A stretch of DNA of 64,000 bases from Giardia intestinalis. Taxonomy: Eukaryota. The stretch is from assembly GCA_000002435.2 (NCBI GenBank), contig CM018789.1; one strand, written 5' to 3'. This document shows positions 41,902 to 48,482 of the stretch, in pieces; position 1 is the first letter of the stretch; each line of letters starts with the position of its first letter. Under the pieces are notes generated by a model. It had not been told where the DNA came from, searched no databases, and worked only from the letters and a program-made list of their open reading frames with translations. The position numbers were made by a program, and so were the translations under genes.

Positions 41902-42621
41902 ATGAGTGCCGGGAACATTTATGCGCTCTACGCCTATCGCCAACGCGATTACCGCCTTTTGGGGTCTGCAATCTACGTAGATGCAAAACGCCAGGAGGTT
42001 TCTCTGTCAGTGTCCAAGCTTGTCGACTCCTTCAGAGAGAAAAATACAGCATTAACTGTGGCAAACTCCCGACTTTGTATTAAAACGAAGGACGGCTTTT
42101 CTCTCCACCTTCTTTATCGCGAATTCGCGGTCGTCGGGGTCCCGCTGGGAATAGTCTTCATCGCAGCTGCAAGAGAAACACACAGAACGACACTCGTCAA
42201 CAGCTTTCTCAACGACATCACTTCCGACCTAGATGGCAACATGACAGCAATAAAACTGGCAGATTCACGTGATGAGCCGGACACACTTTCCCGCGCACTT
42301 TTGTCAGCCAGCCAACTTCCTTTAAAGAAGTACGACCAGGTAGCAGGAGATATGCTTGGTCAAATTCAGAGTGACATGGCTTCTATTCGCGACAATGCGG
42401 CACGGAACATAGACAAGCTCAGGGTCAACACGGACACGCTCAACACCATAGAGCAGAACGCAGGACAGCTTGCCACCAGTGCAGACGCCTTTAAGTCGGA
42501 AGCAAAACGCGTGGAGAAGGCAGCAAAGTGCCGCAAGATTAAGATGTACGCGATCATAGCCGCGATTATACTGGTCATTCTCCTCATAATCATCGTTCCC
42601 ATCGCGATCAAGTTTTCTTAA
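41902..42621 (+). CDS. longin-domain SNARE (VAMP/synaptobrevin-like, C-terminal TM anchor)
   Basis: The ORF-track start is GTG 41878; the ATG is at 41902. C-terminal SNARE heptads plus membrane anchor RVNTDTLNTIEQNAGQLATSADAFKSEAKRVEKAAKCRKIKMYAIIAAIILVILLIIIVPIAIKFS parallel VAMP2 [69 protein letters not shown]. The N-terminal ~120 aa are longin-like. Confidence 0.65.
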   Translation: MSAGNIYALYAYRQRDYRLLGSAIYVDAKRQEVSLSVSKLVDSFREKNTALTVANSRLCIKTKDGFSLHLLYREFAVVGVPLGIVFIAAARETHRTTLVNSFLNDITSDLDGNMTAIKLADSRDEPDTLSRALLSASQLPLKKYDQVAGDMLGQIQSDMASIRDNAARNIDKLRVNTDTLNTIEQNAGQLATSADAFKSEAKRVEKAAKCRKIKMYAIIAAIILVILLIIIVPIAIKFS

Positions 42622-45600: not shown

Positions 45601-48482
45601 AACATGCTGACTCCCTTTGCCATTATAGTGGATAGCCACTGTACGAAGGCTTGATATACTAACAAGGATGTTGGGGGAGCCTCTTTAGACGTTGTTGCTG
45701 CAAGACGCTTTGAATCGTGCAAGAATTTGTTGGTCACAAAGATTTCTTCGAGCCACGGGCATATGAGAACGAGCGCTTCGTAATGCGCACCGGCATCCAT
45801 TGTGAGTGTATTTGCAATCACCGGCTTAAGCTGAGAAAGAAACTTTGCCTTCCGCTGGACTTCATCTTCTATTGCATCCAGTGGATCATCTGCCAAAGCC
45901 CGCTTGAGGGGTGGCTCATCTGCCGCCAGATCACCAAGCTTATTCACAAGGCTTGGTTGGGGGGCATCATGCATATCTGTGTCAGGATCTTCTTTAGTCC
46001 TTTCCTCACCCCCTTGGTCTGGCAACTTTGACTCTTGGCGTGCTCGATCAGACCCCTCTGCGTCACCTGCTTCGGTAGGAGCAGGTTCTGCTTCATCGCC
46101 CGAGGGCCTTGTATCCATAGAATCACCTTGGCGAGCGTACTTAACGAAGTCGTCGTTAAATAATGACATCATGAACGAATTGTTATAGGCAATGGCAGAC
46201 ATGATGCTGAGGACAGAAAGGCCAACCAGGTGCACCGTGAGAACTGCTCCACAGCTCAGTCTGCTGGTTGCAACGACCTCGACAGATGTCTTAGATATGC
46301 AGAACAGCTTATAAATTAAGTCCATGACTCGATAAACAAGTGATTCCTTGCCAATAGAAGAAAGCTTTCCATCGGCCACTTCGGAGCCACCACAAAATTT
46401 GAACAAACGCAGGAAGATAAACTCTAATGTCAGTGGGGTTTTAGATTGCTCAAGGGGGCCAACGACTGCAGCCTTATCGACCAAGTACCAGAGGGCTGAT
46501 GCACCAAACCGACCGGACGCCTCGTCAGAGAAGAAACACCTTGATGCATGATTAGAGTTCGCCTGCATCGTTTCTATCATTACGCCAGTGTTTGTTCCGG
46601 GATCTACATCTACCGATAATCTAGAGGTGTACCTTGCTGCCGGCGAAGAAGCCAAGTCACTAACCAACTGTGCATGTTCCCTGCCTGCATCGTGCTGCGC
46701 AAAGTAGATAAAAGGCTGTTCATTATCAACCTCGGCATTCAAGAAAGCAAGGGTCTTAAACTCGTTCTGCAAATACAAAGACATGCATATACCATCCATG
46801 ATGCTTTGCCGCTGACCCGGACTTTCAAAAAAACAGTTAGCTGACGAAGAAGAGCCAGGCTTCTCCTTGCCATCAGCAGGAGGAGTATATAAAAATAACG
46901 GTAGTCTCCGTCGAAGCTCATTCTGGGCTCCATACTGATCACCATAGAGGAGGGGGTTTCTCATAAAGACATCTACGTCGATGAGTTGATCGAGGGTACG
47001 TAGCCCTAGAAATCTTGCTATTTGCAAGGTGTGAATGTAGCGCCGAAGCTCACAGTCCTGTATGTGAAGAGCCGCAAACTGTCTGAACTCCAAGCGAGTT
47101 GAGAAAGCACGAAGAAGCCAGCTATGGTTTGCCTCGAACTTGTTAATAAGAATATCTGTGGGGTTATACAGCTCTATCTTCAAGGGTAATGCGAACTCCT
47201 TTTCTCTGCCTTGGCGGCGAATAGTCTCCTCGTCTGTAGCTAGTGTCAGCTCATCAATAGCAAAGTCTGTCCGATGCAAACTGAACTGAAACACGAAGCG
47301 CTTCCTCTTTTCCCGCTCAAGTAGGCGTACAACATATGCCTGCAGAGTGCGAACCTTCAGCTGCATAGACAGCTTCGTTTCTTTTCCATAGAAGATGCGC
47401 ATAAACATCAATGGGTACTCTGCTTTGTTGACATACTCCACAGTGAAGTCTCTCCTAAGAGGCCAGCTTCCGTGGACAAACCGTTTTCCATCACCCTCCC
47501 CAGAATTATGCGGAATATCTCTGAGTTCCACCCCGCGGGGATACACACAGACATCTGGAGTTATAAGCCCGAGGTCCACGGCATTCTCAGCTAATATGAA
47601 ATTCTTAAACAAAGTACTGTAGTTGTCTGGCAACTCCCTCATGACGTTATCATAAACGCTCTGCGGGACAGTCTTAAAACCTTGACTGAGGGCCTGGCAC
47701 TCCGGAGGAGGTGGCGCACGCAAGTACTCCATAACTGCTGCGATTATATCTGGCGTAGCACGCTCTGGCCACTGCTCCATGTTCTCTAAACTGAGCAAAG
47801 GACGGGATGACTGCGAAGCTGGTTTCGAAGGTCCACTAAGCTCAATGGGTCCGGCCATTGGAAGGGTATTTGGCAGAAGATCAGCTGAATGTGTTTCCAG
47901 CTGCCCACGCCCCTTGATAGCCTGGACTTCGCGCCAGATGTGCATCGAGTATGCATCCATCATTTCCGAGTACTGTTGCAATGTGGCTAGAGGAGGCAGC
48001 TGCTGCAAAAACGCTTGTTCCTGTGCTTCAGTAGTCAGGGTATCTAAAACCTGTGCTCCCATGATCCCCGTATCAGAGAAGATATAATTGAAGTGTCTTA
48101 TGATGGTTTCCAAGGGCTCGTGTGCAGGGCGGTGCATGAACCGGTGAATCGCCTCCCAGGACCCGATACCATTGATTTCTATCGCTTCGAGCAGCCCCAG
48201 ATCATCCGAAATTGTCCAGCCATCCGGCCATGCTACCATGTTAAAAGCTGTCCGAGGATACATCAAGTGGCTGCTATTGTGTGTTTTATATTCTGCCTGA
48301 GACAGATAACAATTGAGACAGAGACTGAAGTCTTTGCAGACGTGACAATGCATGCGTATGCAAGACGAATCCAGCTTGAATTCGCAGTAACTGCAGAGCT
48401 CCTCTACTGTATTAGCATGCGACTCCTTGGCTTCCTGGACGTGCTTCTCGCTGGGTGCAGCGAGAGAGCCATCACCGTTCAT
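42618..48482 (-). CDS. giant (1954 aa) protein with N-terminal ZZ-type zinc finger + SANT/Myb domain (ADA2-like) and Pro-rich C-terminus
   Basis: ATG at 48482 with ggtatttcaaaaaatagttcATG. N-terminus CSYCEFKLDSSCIRMHCHVCKDFSLCLNCYLSQAEYKTHNSSHLMYP is a ZZ finger (compare ADA2 CDYC...IKCAVCPDFDLCIECF...H..H.Y). It is followed by WTISDDLGLLEAIEINGIGSWEAI, a SANT domain (compare ADA2 [24 protein letters not shown]). The C-terminal ~150 aa are PPxP-rich. Confidence 0.7.
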   Translation of the reverse strand: MNGDGSLAAPSEKHVQEAKESHANTVEELCSYCEFKLDSSCIRMHCHVCKDFSLCLNCYLSQAEYKTHNSSHLMYPRTAFNMVAWPDGWTISDDLGLLEAIEINGIGSWEAIHRFMHRPAHEPLETIIRHFNYIFSDTGIMGAQVLDTLTTEAQEQAFLQQLPPLATLQQYSEMMDAYSMHIWREVQAIKGRGQLETHSADLLPNTLPMAGPIELSGPSKPASQSSRPLLSLENMEQWPERATPDIIAAVMEYLRAPPPPECQALSQGFKTVPQSVYDNVMRELPDNYSTLFKNFILAENAVDLGLITPDVCVYPRGVELRDIPHNSGEGDGKRFVHGSWPLRRDFTVEYVNKAEYPLMFMRIFYGKETKLSMQLKVRTLQAYVVRLLEREKRKRFVFQFSLHRTDFAIDELTLATDEETIRRQGREKEFALPLKIELYNPTDILINKFEANHSWLLRAFSTRLEFRQFAALHIQDCELRRYIHTLQIARFLGLRTLDQLIDVDVFMRNPLLYGDQYGAQNELRRRLPLFLYTPPADGKEKPGSSSSANCFFESPGQRQSIMDGICMSLYLQNEFKTLAFLNAEVDNEQPFIYFAQHDAGREHAQLVSDLASSPAARYTSRLSVDVDPGTNTGVMIETMQANSNHASRCFFSDEASGRFGASALWYLVDKAAVVGPLEQSKTPLTLEFIFLRLFKFCGGSEVADGKLSSIGKESLVYRVMDLIYKLFCISKTSVEVVATSRLSCGAVLTVHLVGLSVLSIMSAIAYNNSFMMSLFNDDFVKYARQGDSMDTRPSGDEAEPAPTEAGDAEGSDRARQESKLPDQGGEERTKEDPDTDMHDAPQPSLVNKLGDLAADEPPLKRALADDPLDAIEDEVQRKAKFLSQLKPVIANTLTMDAGAHYEALVLICPWLEEIFVTNKFLHDSKRLAATTSKEAPPTSLLVYQAFVQWLSTIMAKGVSMFSTEQQTQYENSIYAQIGGAQATMLQMLINIFKDSTQLRPFLRSFTSSFLDTGSDVTSADIELKETVCATGAIVDYTIQKYRSLMHQSTSWDTFFNARALGHVTYTTLRSDRVGFNNVHVFSNISFCLQVAPMSSLLCSLLASILPHTIMAYGLKSPFVASLLKLLTDRRSEISFEVCIGYPEYLVHPDFRYADKAMQGDVGEADRMANGLIHFLKSTHSYTDKEGLDPDAIRSSIWLPSAAYGLFISSAPQPHRKKIFEAYRQASYLIACTEQEMHYRDKNLYMFYGSFKQFSLQEHLVPYEMCTTHLWLSLRYLPSVADTDAPYYKATQKLKKIASKCANINPVTIMASEYQIAKLSKAEYKDLRIRLCTTDRKIVLYTLRDYSRDMFFKICDTLLTLTQQKLNILVEQNRYLLANDPFYRDQTNVRQSKRTTPGQAGRNIIDAFNHSNIALITSQFDAFMAHDHFLLRYDNPGDAPRGCSESSAKSRTISEKLKLQGLDPSTYYIIEPKEYLFGPVMPRKSYIQADSQNRPSAILPINMRPRMVKPHQMRYLHSSVGTATDLMSHNEFCSRYLTRGEVIFLALSEIDIETYLFAKESFIASGYIITRTIFSVFDCRPGACEIMAILVISALCSQSAYSTVPMMNSFDNTKIDYSVEWAHCTPYHLFLNTLGDRQARDENVSTEITAHTDIKLTYGTREISTISNLRLPKAKFEPNIMSVDSLNIPATLLQKANEIIDKDSLDKAIRSYRSIFLQSHFNQDYRAAASNSLGSSNHEQHSNLSHQYMYHPSSGFPARSTYTKSVLKVSIETQTVLSFWRDEKAKRVQKILSAPKPVHQGHVRPPTTMPAAPGAIPPPVAPALPSFPPLKTSQASSRPPPGIFPPTPSELPVTPAVPPGLSPRLPPQAGQGGLPLPYPPPVVQGPVLPMVQPGPYLPSSCAVIPSEAHQLHQLPNISPVLPESVKNSIGQHSYSSLNISVQQNLLSGGLNPSNH

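What the first reader, a model, noticed from the sequence alone, without database searches (positions are those of the whole stretch)
42618..48482. ADA2-like ZZ finger + SANT module at the N-terminus of a 1954-aa protein with a proline-rich tail
The first ~130 residues reproduce the ZZ zinc finger (C-x2-C...C-x2-C...H...H) and the adjacent SANT/Myb domain (W...LLEAIEINGIGSWEAI) that define transcriptional adaptor ADA2. ADA2 proteins are usually ~450-550 aa, whereas here the module heads a giant ORF. Its remainder is unrecognisable except for a ~150-aa PPxP-rich C-terminus. It could be a lineage-specific chromatin scaffold or a fusion. Giardia's complement of SAGA/ADA components is minimal, so this is worth clarifying.
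Basis: partly seen in the sequence, partly recalled or inferred. Interest (0 to 1): 0.5.

Follow-up and report, generated by a model that had tools for sequence, protein, structure and literature searches.

The report
Giant divergent ADA2 adaptor of Giardia
This Giardia gene encodes a very divergent, four-times-oversized version of ADA2, the adaptor that normally partners the histone acetyltransferase GCN5. Its first 500 residues match ADA2, and the remaining ~1,450 residues are a conserved extension found only in Giardia and its closest relatives, with unknown function.

Summary
A 1954-aa ATG-to-stop ORF lies at window 42618-48482 on the minus strand. It is 100% identical to Giardia intestinalis WB GL50803_113625, annotated 'hypothetical protein'.

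- A profile-profile comparison aligns aa 27-499 collinearly with yeast Ada2 aa 4-296 (98% probability, E 2.4e-13).
- That stretch covers the ZZ finger (all 8 zinc ligands), the SANT domain, a 175-aa lineage-specific insert, the ADA2 middle domain (Pfam PF22941, 44 bits against a cut-off of 27) and the following helix.
- The best solved-structure matches are Ada2 chains. CBP/p300 and dystrobrevin ZZ fingers score lower.

No SWIRM domain could be demonstrated. The best candidate, aa ~1524-1600, is not significant.

An exhaustive search of 1.84 billion proteins with aa 560-1759 found relatives only in Giardia assemblages, G. muris, one unnamed GC-rich relative and one short fragment. The full-length ones share the same architecture.

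The block aa 1201-1725 is as constrained as the ADA2 core (pN/pS about 0.04-0.06). The Pro-rich tail is conserved in character only. Both AlphaFold2 runs failed (pLDDT 32 and 38), so the fold of the extension remains unknown.

Verdict: a divergent ADA2 orthologue with an orphan extension. Interest is moderate.

The parts
42618..48482 (-). Complete CDS, 1954 aa plus TAA stop; identical to GL50803_113625
48483..48498 (-). A-rich element (TTTCAAAAAATAGTTC) directly upstream of the ATG. It looks like the short AT-rich initiator typical of Giardia genes (own knowledge). A similar TTCAAAAAAT lies upstream of the distant orthologue in L004.
   Evidence: function inferred, not tested
48267..48395 (-). 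ZZ zinc finger, aa 30-72, ligands C30 C33 C46 C49 C55 C58 H68 H72
   Evidence: ZZ_ADA2 E 2.7e-5 (24.6 bits, below GA 27.5) versus generic ZZ 0.032. Aligned to Ada2 ZZ in 6cw2_C and 9ynv_M. Ligands invariant in 6 orthologues.
48078..48230 (-). SANT domain, aa 85-135 (three helices)
   Evidence: Aligned to Ada2 SANT in PDB hits and by hhalign. Pfam Myb_DNA-binding reaches only 14.5 bits, below GA. pN/pS 0.03.
47538..48062 (-). Variable insert between SANT and the middle domain, aa 141-315. It is 175 aa here, 111 aa in G. muris and 72 aa in the GC-rich relative; hhalign leaves most of it unaligned against a yeast Ada2 linker of roughly 50 aa (Ada2 ~111-163).
   Evidence: pN/pS 0.20-0.29
47262..47486 (-). 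ADA2 middle domain (TADA2A-like 3rd domain), aa 333-407. In yeast, the AlphaFold-Multimer model in PMC10226619 shows Ada2, Ada3 and Gcn5 intertwined.
   Evidence: PF22941 E 2.1e-11, 44.2 bits, GA 27. The same hit occurs in G. muris and P0035. Aligned to Ada2 191-264 of 9ynv_M and yeast Ada2 164-230.
46893..47162 (-). Conserved helical region, aa 441-530. Within it, aa 461-499 align with yeast Ada2 259-296 (TRLEFRQFAALHIQDCELRRYIHTLQIARFLGLRTL against TAQDFEEFSKDILEELHCRARIQQLQEWRSNGLTTL). This is where detectable ADA2 homology ends.
   Evidence: 88-92% invariant among assemblages
44883..46892 (-). Middle body, aa 531-1200, with no recognisable family. It contains variable stretches, an acidic linker (aa ~785-870, up to 32% D+E) and a better-conserved block at aa 961-1120 (pN/pS 0.10).
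43308..44882 (-). Strongly constrained orphan C-terminal region, aa 1201-1725. It is conserved in G. muris and in the GC-rich relative. The low-confidence AF2 model is mostly helical.
   Evidence: 78-98% invariant columns. pN/pS 0.035-0.06, as low as the ADA2 core. The only homologues are Giardia-lineage proteins. No Pfam or PDB match. AF2 pLDDT 38.
43683..43913 (-). Best, but statistically unsupported, SWIRM-like stretch, aa 1524-1600 (YLTRGEVIFLALSEIDIETYLFAKE against yeast LLSNDEQQLCIQLKILPKPYLVLKE)
   Evidence: hhalign places the best local match of the ADA2/SWIRM profile here, but with E 0.07 / probability 0.8% and E 0.36. hmmsearch gives at most 6 bits. No Pfam SWIRM hit.
42621..43115 (-). 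Proline-rich low-complexity tail, aa 1790-1954 (24.8% Pro), ending in the conserved motif YSSLNISVQQ
   Evidence: Orthologue tails are 15-27% Pro and vary in length from 161 to 408 aa. pN/pS 0.29-0.37.

Best explanation
The gene encodes the Giardia orthologue of the transcriptional adaptor ADA2.

Shown here: residues 27-499 are homologous, in order, to yeast Ada2 residues 4-296. That stretch comprises the ZZ finger, the SANT domain, the middle domain and the following helix.

Inferred from what these parts do in yeast (PMC10226619 and the 6CW2/6CW3 structure cited there): the ZZ-SANT unit docks on the catalytic domain of Giardia GCN5 (GL50803_10666). The SANT domain promotes acetyl-CoA binding. 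The middle region holds the acetyltransferase module together, so that nucleosomal histone H3 can be acetylated.

Shown here: a SWIRM domain cannot be demonstrated. In yeast this is the part of Ada2 that tethers the module to the SAGA core. About 1,450 further residues follow the ADA2 core. They are found only in the Giardia lineage, and they include a block (aa 1201-1725) under selection as strong as on the ADA2 core, plus a proline-rich disordered tail.

Inferred, weakly: this extension replaces the missing SAGA-type tether. It may act as a lineage-specific platform that recruits the GCN5 module to other Giardia nuclear factors.
For: - ADA2 homology by profile-profile comparison: hhalign of the family against 24 yeast ADA2, probability 98%, E 2.4e-13, 289 collinear columns, aa 27-499 aligned to Ada2 4-296.
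- ADA2 homology by Pfam: PF22941 at 44 bits against a cut-off of 27, in G. intestinalis, G. muris and P0035.
- ADA2 homology by solved structures: the best PDB hits are Ada2 chains (8.5e-7 single sequence; 1.8e-10 and 3e-10 with profiles), in three collinear stretches.
- All eight zinc ligands are invariant.
- No paralogue appears among the hits of a whole-protein search.
- The whole ORF is one conserved gene. The same architecture is found in 4 G. intestinalis-like lineages, in G. muris (37% identity) and in a 61%-GC relative (31% identity) that has the same tail-to-tail synaptobrevin neighbour.
- pN/pS is below 0.4 everywhere, 0.03-0.06 in the ADA2 core and in aa 1201-1725.
- The extension is an orphan. 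HMMER against 1.84 billion representatives finds only 5 proteins, all of this lineage.
- A Giardia GCN5 exists, and perturbing its expression (overexpression or antisense) arrested proliferation in culture (PMC11738946).
- In yeast, ZZ-SANT binds Gcn5, and SWIRM is needed only for attachment to SAGA, not for HAT-module activity (PMC10226619).
- ADA3-independent, rewired GCN5-ADA2 complexes are documented in Toxoplasma, Plasmodium and plants (PMC13601556, PMC8396726).
Against: - No experimental or co-occurrence evidence here links this protein to GCN5, to chromatin or to the nucleus.
- ZZ_ADA2 and Myb/SANT each fall below Pfam's curated cut-offs when scored alone.
- SWIRM, a typical ADA2 domain, is not detectable.
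- The scaffold role of the extension is pure inference. Both AlphaFold2 models were unusable (pLDDT 32 and 38), and fold search gave nothing.
- Three hydrophobic 19-residue windows exceed Kyte-Doolittle 1.6 (aa 746-764, 1084-1114, 1581-1603). No transmembrane predictor was run on them.
Confidence: 0.65

Rival explanations
1. Complete ADA2 with a displaced SWIRM. On this reading the protein keeps all four ADA2 domains. About 1,000 residues have been inserted between the middle region and a highly divergent SWIRM at aa ~1524-1600, so the 'extension' is mostly an insertion.
For: In two independent hhalign runs the single best local match of the ADA2/SWIRM profile over the whole 1954-aa family profile falls on aa 1499-1580. 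The register is L-[ST]-x2-E-x3-[CL]-x9-Y-L-x2-K-E. The stretch lies in the most conserved part of the body and is kept in the 84-aa fragment P0037, which gives the only positive hmmsearch score (6.3 bits, same register). The low-confidence AF2 model places five short helices there.
Against: The match is not significant: E 0.07 / probability 0.8% and E 0.36. G. muris and G. intestinalis give no positive HMM score. There is no Pfam SWIRM hit even at E<=10 and no PDB SWIRM hit with the family profile. Other 'LS..E'-type look-alikes can be found by eye (aa ~553-571 and ~1317-1340), which shows how easily such motifs arise.
Confidence: 0.15
2. Repurposed ADA2 descendant. The ZZ-SANT-middle module is ancestral, but the protein no longer works with GCN5. 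It serves as a scaffold in some other Giardia-specific process, and the ADA2 part acts only as a generic histone-tail or protein-binding head.
For: Three quarters of the protein is lineage-specific and as constrained as the head. The function of the Ada2 ZZ domain is still unknown even in yeast (PMC10226619). One inventory listed this gene among candidate E3/zinc-finger proteins (PMC7029713).
Against: The regions kept under the strongest constraint are those that in yeast contact Gcn5 and build the HAT module (pN/pS 0.03). Giardia retains GCN5, and the whole-protein search found no other ADA2-like protein.
Confidence: 0.15
3. Gene-model artefact or recent fusion. Here the 1954-aa ORF would join a ~550-aa ADA2 gene to an unrelated downstream gene, through assembly error or loss of a stop codon.
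For: The length is about four times that of typical ADA2 (417-523 aa in the 24 aligned yeast ADA2). Poorly conserved linkers follow the ADA2 part.
Against: The same uninterrupted frame occurs in independent assemblies of at least four G. intestinalis-like lineages, in G. muris and in a 61%-GC relative. The linkers are also under purifying selection (pN/pS 0.2-0.36). No family member is known that carries only the body.
Confidence: 0.03

Closest known systems
Yeast Ada2 / human TADA2A and TADA2B (HAT-module adaptor of SAGA, ADA and ATAC)
   Same: The order and sequence of ZZ finger, SANT domain, middle (PF22941) domain and the following helix are the same: aa 27-499 correspond to Ada2 4-296. 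The zinc ligands are conserved, and these are the best hits in the PDB.
   Different: The protein is 1954 aa, against 417-523 aa for the yeast ADA2 aligned here. It has a 175-aa insert between SANT and the middle domain. It has no demonstrable SWIRM domain. About 1,450 extra residues have no counterpart. ZZ and SANT alone score below Pfam's cut-offs.
Giant ADA2 proteins of Apicomplexa (PfADA2, TgADA2-A/-B), which work in rewired, ADA3-less GCN5 complexes
   Same: These are parasitic-protist ADA2 homologues embedded in much larger proteins (sizes from my own knowledge). Their organisms lack most of SAGA (PMC8396726, PMC13601556).
   Different: The extensions are not homologous. An exhaustive search with aa 560-1759 found no apicomplexan or any other non-Giardia-lineage protein. 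The enlargement therefore arose independently.
Plant PAGA complex (ADA2A-GCN5 with a lineage-specific scaffold instead of ADA3/SPT)
   Same: It is a conceptual precedent for an ADA2-centred acetyltransferase module that uses a non-SAGA scaffold (PMC13601556).
   Different: In plants the scaffold is a separate multi-PHD protein. Here the candidate scaffold is covalently part of ADA2 and has no PHD or other recognisable domain.
Other ZZ-finger proteins (CBP/p300, dystrophin/dystrobrevin, KCMF1, HERC2)
   Same: They share the Cys/His zinc-binding ZZ pattern (weak hits).
   Different: They score 3-5 orders of magnitude worse than Ada2. None has the adjacent SANT domain and PF22941 domain.

Membership tests
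ADA2 (transcriptional adaptor 2) | N-terminal ZZ-type zinc finger of the ADA2 subtype with eight Cys/His ligands | tested here: met
   C30 C33 C46 C49 C55 C58 H68 H72 are invariant in 6 orthologues. ZZ_ADA2 is the best ZZ model (24.6 bits, E 2.7e-5) but falls below Pfam GA 27.5. The finger is aligned to the Ada2 ZZ in 6cw2_C/9ynv_M and lies inside the 98% hhalign match.
ADA2 (transcriptional adaptor 2) | SANT domain immediately after the ZZ finger (the Gcn5-contacting unit) | tested here: met
   aa 85-135 align with the Ada2 SANT in PDB matches and in hhalign. Pfam Myb_DNA-binding alone gives only 14.5 bits, below GA 24.4.
ADA2 (transcriptional adaptor 2) | ADA2 middle domain (Pfam PF22941, TADA2A-like 3rd domain) | tested here: met
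   44.2 bits, E 2.1e-11, GA 27, at aa 340-407. G. muris scores 44.8 bits and P0035 45.2 bits.
ADA2 (transcriptional adaptor 2) | C-terminal SWIRM domain | tested here: inconclusive
   There is no Pfam SWIRM hit at E<=10 on any segment. The best profile-profile match is aa 1499-1580, at E 0.07 to 0.36. hmmsearch gives at most 6.3 bits. The AF2 model is too poor to judge. In yeast, SWIRM is dispensable for HAT-module activity and is needed only for docking to SAGA (PMC10226619).
ADA2 (transcriptional adaptor 2) | Physical association with GCN5 and stimulation of nucleosomal acetylation | not testable with these tools
   This needs co-purification or complex modelling. Only the existence of a Giardia GCN5 (GL50803_10666) is documented (PMC11738946).
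ADA2 (transcriptional adaptor 2) | Typical size of about 420-550 residues | tested here: not met
   The protein is 1954 aa, against 417-523 aa in the 24 aligned yeast ADA2. Size is typical of the family rather than defining.
Apicomplexan giant ADA2 (PfADA2/TgADA2) as a shared 'long ADA2' subfamily | Homology of the extension outside the ADA2 core | tested here: not met
   phmmer of aa 560-1759 against 1.84 billion representatives found only 5 hits at E<=1e-3, all Giardia-lineage.
Generic ZZ proteins (CBP/p300, dystrophin type) | ZZ finger as the best-matching and only recognisable element | tested here: not met
   Ada2 chains outrank CBP/p300 (2e-3) and dystrobrevin (0.14). Additional ADA2-specific domains are present.

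The most novel reading that the evidence does not exclude
The strongly constrained orphan block aa 1201-1725 may be a new chromatin- or complex-docking domain. On this reading, Giardia-lineage diplomonads use it in place of the missing SAGA core, and possibly of ADA3 contacts, so that the tether of the acetyltransferase module is built into ADA2 itself. A variant of this idea is that the block hides an extremely divergent SWIRM at aa 1524-1600, moved about 1,000 residues away from the ADA2 core.
Probability: 0.2. Interest if true: 0.6.

Novelty: new variant of a known kind. Interest (0 to 1): 0.35.

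Why it matters
Giardia has a very reduced transcription and chromatin apparatus, and perturbing expression of its GCN5 acetyltransferase stops growth (PMC11738946). In the literature searched here, no partner of that enzyme has been described.

This gene is still labelled 'hypothetical protein'. The analysis gives a specific, testable candidate for the GCN5 adaptor. It also shows that the part of ADA2 that docks to SAGA in other eukaryotes is either missing or unrecognisable, and that a large Giardia-specific, strongly conserved region stands in its place. 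That region has no homologue in any other organism searched, the host included, so it could be a handle for dissecting, or selectively disturbing, histone acetylation in the parasite.

It also adds an independent case, alongside Apicomplexa and plants, of ADA2-centred complexes being rebuilt with lineage-specific scaffolds.

Tried and rejected
1. AlphaFold2 of aa 1-560 with a 4-sequence alignment gave mean pLDDT 31.9 and was unusable.
2. AlphaFold2 of aa 1200-1740 with 7 sequences, including G. muris and the GC-rich relative, gave pLDDT 38.2 and was unusable. Foldseek of that model against the PDB returned nothing with E<1. No further fold searches were run, because both models were meaningless.
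3. The search for homologous proteins with the N-terminal alignment returned no hit at all, not even the Giardia proteins themselves. I treated this as a failed search, not as evidence.
4. SWIRM hunting gave nothing significant: Pfam on seven segments at E<=10, a family profile of aa 1505-1640 against the PDB, hhalign against full ADA2, hhalign against a SWIRM profile built from the roughly 120 yeast ADA2 sequences, and hmmsearch (its shuffle control crashed because the G. intestinalis sequence gave no hit).
5. Body profiles against PDB sequences gave only chance-level hits: myosin light chain (E 1.5) and TAF8 on the Pro-rich tail (E 0.02, judged compositional).
6. A self-BLAST found no internal repeats.
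7. The idea that the body is a fused second known protein (for example ADA3 or SGF29) was considered. No Pfam or PDB signal supports it.
8. A membrane-protein reading was considered because of three hydrophobic windows. I set it aside as unlikely for a ZZ-SANT protein, but it was not tested with a transmembrane predictor.
9. Neighbouring genes are unrelated: amino-acid permease, synaptobrevin, Ham1, PTPLA, NEK-ankyrin kinase. Gene context gives no functional clue.

Full report
**1. The observation**

A single ORF runs from an ATG at window 48482 to a TAA at 42620-42618 on the minus strand and encodes 1954 aa. The finding's coordinates are exact, but the strand was not given. The protein is 100% identical to GL50803_113625 / XP_001706384 of Giardia intestinalis WB, which NCBI names 'hypothetical protein'. 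UniRef names it automatically 'Transcriptional adapter 2-alpha/beta-like domain-containing protein', and a strain-DH copy is called 'Putative ZZ type zinc finger protein'.

The ATG is preceded directly by TTTCAAAAAATAGTTC. This resembles the short A-rich initiators of Giardia genes (own knowledge). The stop overlaps by 4 nt the stop of a convergent synaptobrevin gene.

The ZZ pattern is C30-x2-C33...C46-x2-C49...C55-x2-C58...H68-x3-H72. The SANT-like W85/W89...LLEAIEINGIGSWEAI...IIRHFNYIF follows it. The last 165 residues are 24.8% proline.

**2. Is the head ADA2-like or a generic ZZ/Myb?**

- Pfam: on aa 1-200, the ADA2-specific ZZ model scores 24.6 bits (E 2.7e-5), against 14.5 bits for the generic ZZ model and 14.5 bits for Myb. 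All three are below their curated cut-offs.
- Pfam, third domain: a third ADA2-specific domain is clearly above its cut-off. PF22941 (TADA2A-like 3rd domain) matches aa 340-407 at 44.2 bits, E 2.1e-11, against a cut-off of 27.
- PDB, single sequence: the best hits are Ada2 chains, 9ynv_M at E 8.5e-7 and yeast 6cw2_C/6cw3_E at 1e-5. Their alignments span both ZZ and SANT. They rank ahead of the CBP/p300 ZZ (2e-3), KCMF1 (0.1) and dystrobrevin (0.14).
- PDB, family profiles: the Ada2 hit improves to 1.8e-10 and 3e-10. It breaks into three collinear stretches, 23-114 to 14-107, 333-399 to 191-264, and 458-488 to 295-325.
- Profile-profile: I fetched ADA2 sequences with yeast Ada2 as the query and aligned 24 of them. 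hhalign of the Giardia-family alignment against this ADA2 alignment gives probability 98%, E 2.4e-13 and 289 aligned columns. Giardia aa 27-499 match yeast Ada2 aa 4-296 in order.

The ADA2-like part is therefore about 500 residues, not about 130. It consists of ZZ, SANT, a poorly conserved insert (aa 141-315, where hhalign leaves most of the stretch unaligned against a yeast Ada2 linker of roughly 50 residues), the middle domain, and the helix TRLEFRQFAALHIQDCELRRYIHTLQIARFLGLRTL, which matches yeast TAQDFEEFSKDILEELHCRARIQQLQEWRSNGLTTL.

**3. SWIRM**

Canonical ADA2 ends in a SWIRM domain (yeast aa 349-434; PMC10226619). None is detected by Pfam on any of seven segments, even at E<=10.

By eye, aa 1535-1559 (YLTRGEVIFLALSEIDIETYLFAKE) resemble the start of the yeast SWIRM (LLSNDEQQLCIQLKILPKPYLVLKE). 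In two hhalign runs, the best local match of the ADA2 or SWIRM profile fell on this stretch. Against the aa 1505-1640 block it aligned aa 1524-1562, and against the whole 1954-column family profile it aligned aa 1499-1580. The statistics are poor in both: E 0.07 with probability 0.8%, and E 0.36.

Other tests gave no support. A SWIRM HMM gives 6.3 bits on the fragment P0037 and negative or no scores on the full-length proteins. A family profile of the stretch finds no SWIRM in the PDB. Other 'LS..E'-like look-alikes can be picked out by eye elsewhere. I therefore record SWIRM as not demonstrated, and keep a displaced, degenerate SWIRM as a rival with low confidence.

**4. The remaining ~1,450 residues**

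Homologues:
- A word-indexed search of 5.8 billion proteins with the whole protein found only four clusters, at 99, 81, 77 and 74% identity. Where named, they are Giardia intestinalis, including assemblage B GL50581_1007.
- An exhaustive HMMER search of 1.84 billion cluster representatives with aa 560-1759 found five proteins.
- Besides a G. intestinalis-like representative (P0004) and an 85-aa near-identical fragment (P0036), these are Giardia muris GMRT_10863, P0035 and P0037.
- G. muris GMRT_10863 is 1686 aa, 33% identical, E 6e-151.
- P0035 is unnamed, 2146 aa, E 1.5e-60, on a 77-kb contig with 61% GC.
- P0037 is an 84-aa metagenomic fragment.

Conserved architecture:
- Both full-length distant relatives start with the same ZZ-SANT-PF22941 head.
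- Both have the same conserved body blocks and end in a low-complexity tail with 15-20% Pro.
- The GC-rich relative also keeps the tail-to-tail synaptobrevin neighbour.

The single-ORF architecture therefore predates the G. intestinalis / G. muris split and is not an assembly or annotation artefact.

Selection: conservation among assemblages is highest in aa 41-160, 320-560, 961-1120 and 1201-1720. It is lowest in aa 161-320, 600-700, 801-960 (acidic) and 1721-1954. The codon-level comparison of assemblage A with B and with a third lineage gives:

| Region | pN/pS |
|---|---|
| ZZ-SANT | 0.03-0.06 |
| Middle region | 0.03-0.04 |
| aa 1201-1725 | 0.035-0.06 |
| aa 961-1120 | 0.10-0.13 |
| Linkers and Pro-rich tail | 0.2-0.4 |

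Synonymous sites are near saturation (pS 0.6-0.98), so these ratios are rough. The ranking is nevertheless clear: the C-terminal block is as constrained as the ADA2 core.

No known family matches the body:
- Pfam gives nothing.
- PDB sequence profiles give only chance or compositional hits.
- There are no internal repeats.
- Both AlphaFold2 attempts, with 4 and 7 sequences, gave pLDDT 32 and 38. They are unusable, and a Foldseek search with the second model returned nothing.

The fold of the extension therefore remains unknown.

**5. Mechanism**

The homology to Ada2 4-296 is shown here. The following is established for yeast (PMC10226619 and the structures it cites):
- Ada2 6-120 (ZZ-SANT) binds the Gcn5 catalytic core.
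- The SANT domain enhances acetyl-CoA binding.
- Gcn5 acetylates nucleosomes only together with Ada2 and Ada3.
- The SWIRM domain tethers the module to the SAGA core. It is dispensable for module activity and for the ADA complex.

Giardia has a GCN5 (GL50803_10666), and perturbing its expression stops proliferation (PMC11738946). A protein annotated with an SGF29-type Tudor domain is reported for Giardia (PMC8638923).

The most likely reading is that this protein is the GCN5 adaptor of Giardia. I put that at roughly 0.65-0.7. The extension could then be a lineage-specific platform replacing the SAGA tether, a weaker inference at roughly 0.3-0.4. Rewired, ADA3-less ADA2-GCN5 complexes in Toxoplasma, Plasmodium and plants are precedents (PMC13601556, PMC8396726).

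**6. Comparison and novelty**

The protein meets three of the four domain hallmarks of ADA2. SWIRM is inconclusive, and GCN5 binding cannot be tested with these tools. The gene is in the databases, and its similarity to TADA2B was listed once in passing, in a ubiquitin-pathway inventory (PMC7029713). I found no paper that describes a Giardia ADA2 or analyses this protein.

Very large ADA2 proteins are known in Apicomplexa (own knowledge for the sizes). Their extensions are not homologous to this one.

I classify it as a new variant of a known kind: a divergent ADA2 orthologue with an independently acquired, conserved orphan extension. Interest is moderate. It is not surprising that Giardia has an ADA2. 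The findings worth following up are the well-defined candidate GCN5 partner and the ~525-residue, strongly constrained, lineage-restricted block.

Noticed in passing
window 7047-7901 (-) and 11461-12315 (+): Two ankyrin-repeat ORFs of identical length (284 aa) lie in opposite orientation about 3.5 kb apart. Each has a shadow ORF of 181 aa on the other strand. This looks like an inverted duplication of a protein-21.1-type gene.
   Followed up: no
window 14731-24291 (+): A 3186-aa ORF has a split protein-kinase domain (aa 2327-2691) followed by a weak dual-specificity-phosphatase match (aa 2898-2970, 21 bits, below cut-off). The first ~2300 residues have no Pfam match.
   Followed up: partly
window 5017-5826 (-): A small 269-aa protein has an ARID/BRIGHT DNA-binding domain (26.6 bits, just above cut-off). 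It is another chromatin or transcription gene in the window, but about 37 kb away and not obviously linked.
   Followed up: no
window 42618-42621: The ADA2-like gene and the convergent synaptobrevin (R-SNARE) gene at 41878-42621 (+) overlap by 4 nt at their stop codons. This tail-to-tail pairing is conserved in assemblage B, in a third lineage and in the 61%-GC distant relative (L002, L003, L004).
   Followed up: partly
window 40486-41082 (-) / 41060-41701 (+): The PTPLA (3-hydroxyacyl-CoA dehydratase-like) ORF and the Ham1/ITPase ORF overlap by 23 nt at their 5' ends as listed by the ORF finder. The true start codons may lie further in.
   Followed up: no
aa 746-764, 1084-1114 and 1581-1603 of the protein (window ~46191-46247, 45141-45233, 43674-43742, minus strand): Three hydrophobic stretches have Kyte-Doolittle 19-residue means of 1.6-2.1, which is transmembrane-like on that scale. 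They are probably buried helices of a large helical domain. No transmembrane predictor was run.
   Followed up: partly
L004 (Logan SRR31929897 contig, 77 kb), gene at 8001-14441: An unnamed organism with 61% GC carries a 2146-aa orthologue (31% identity), together with Giardia-like compact gene spacing and an A-rich initiator. It appears to be an unsequenced or unnamed relative of Giardia. It would be valuable for deepening alignments of Giardia orphan proteins.
   Followed up: partly
aa 1736-1912 (window ~42747-43277, minus strand): The family profile gives a weak hit (E 0.02) to human TAF8 residues 38-244 over the proline-rich tail. I judged it compositional, but it was not examined in detail.
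   Followed up: no
window 29472-30704 (+): A 410-aa protein has a 5MP/BZW-type HEAT domain plus a W2 domain, which makes it an eIF5-mimic-like translation regulator.
   Followed up: no
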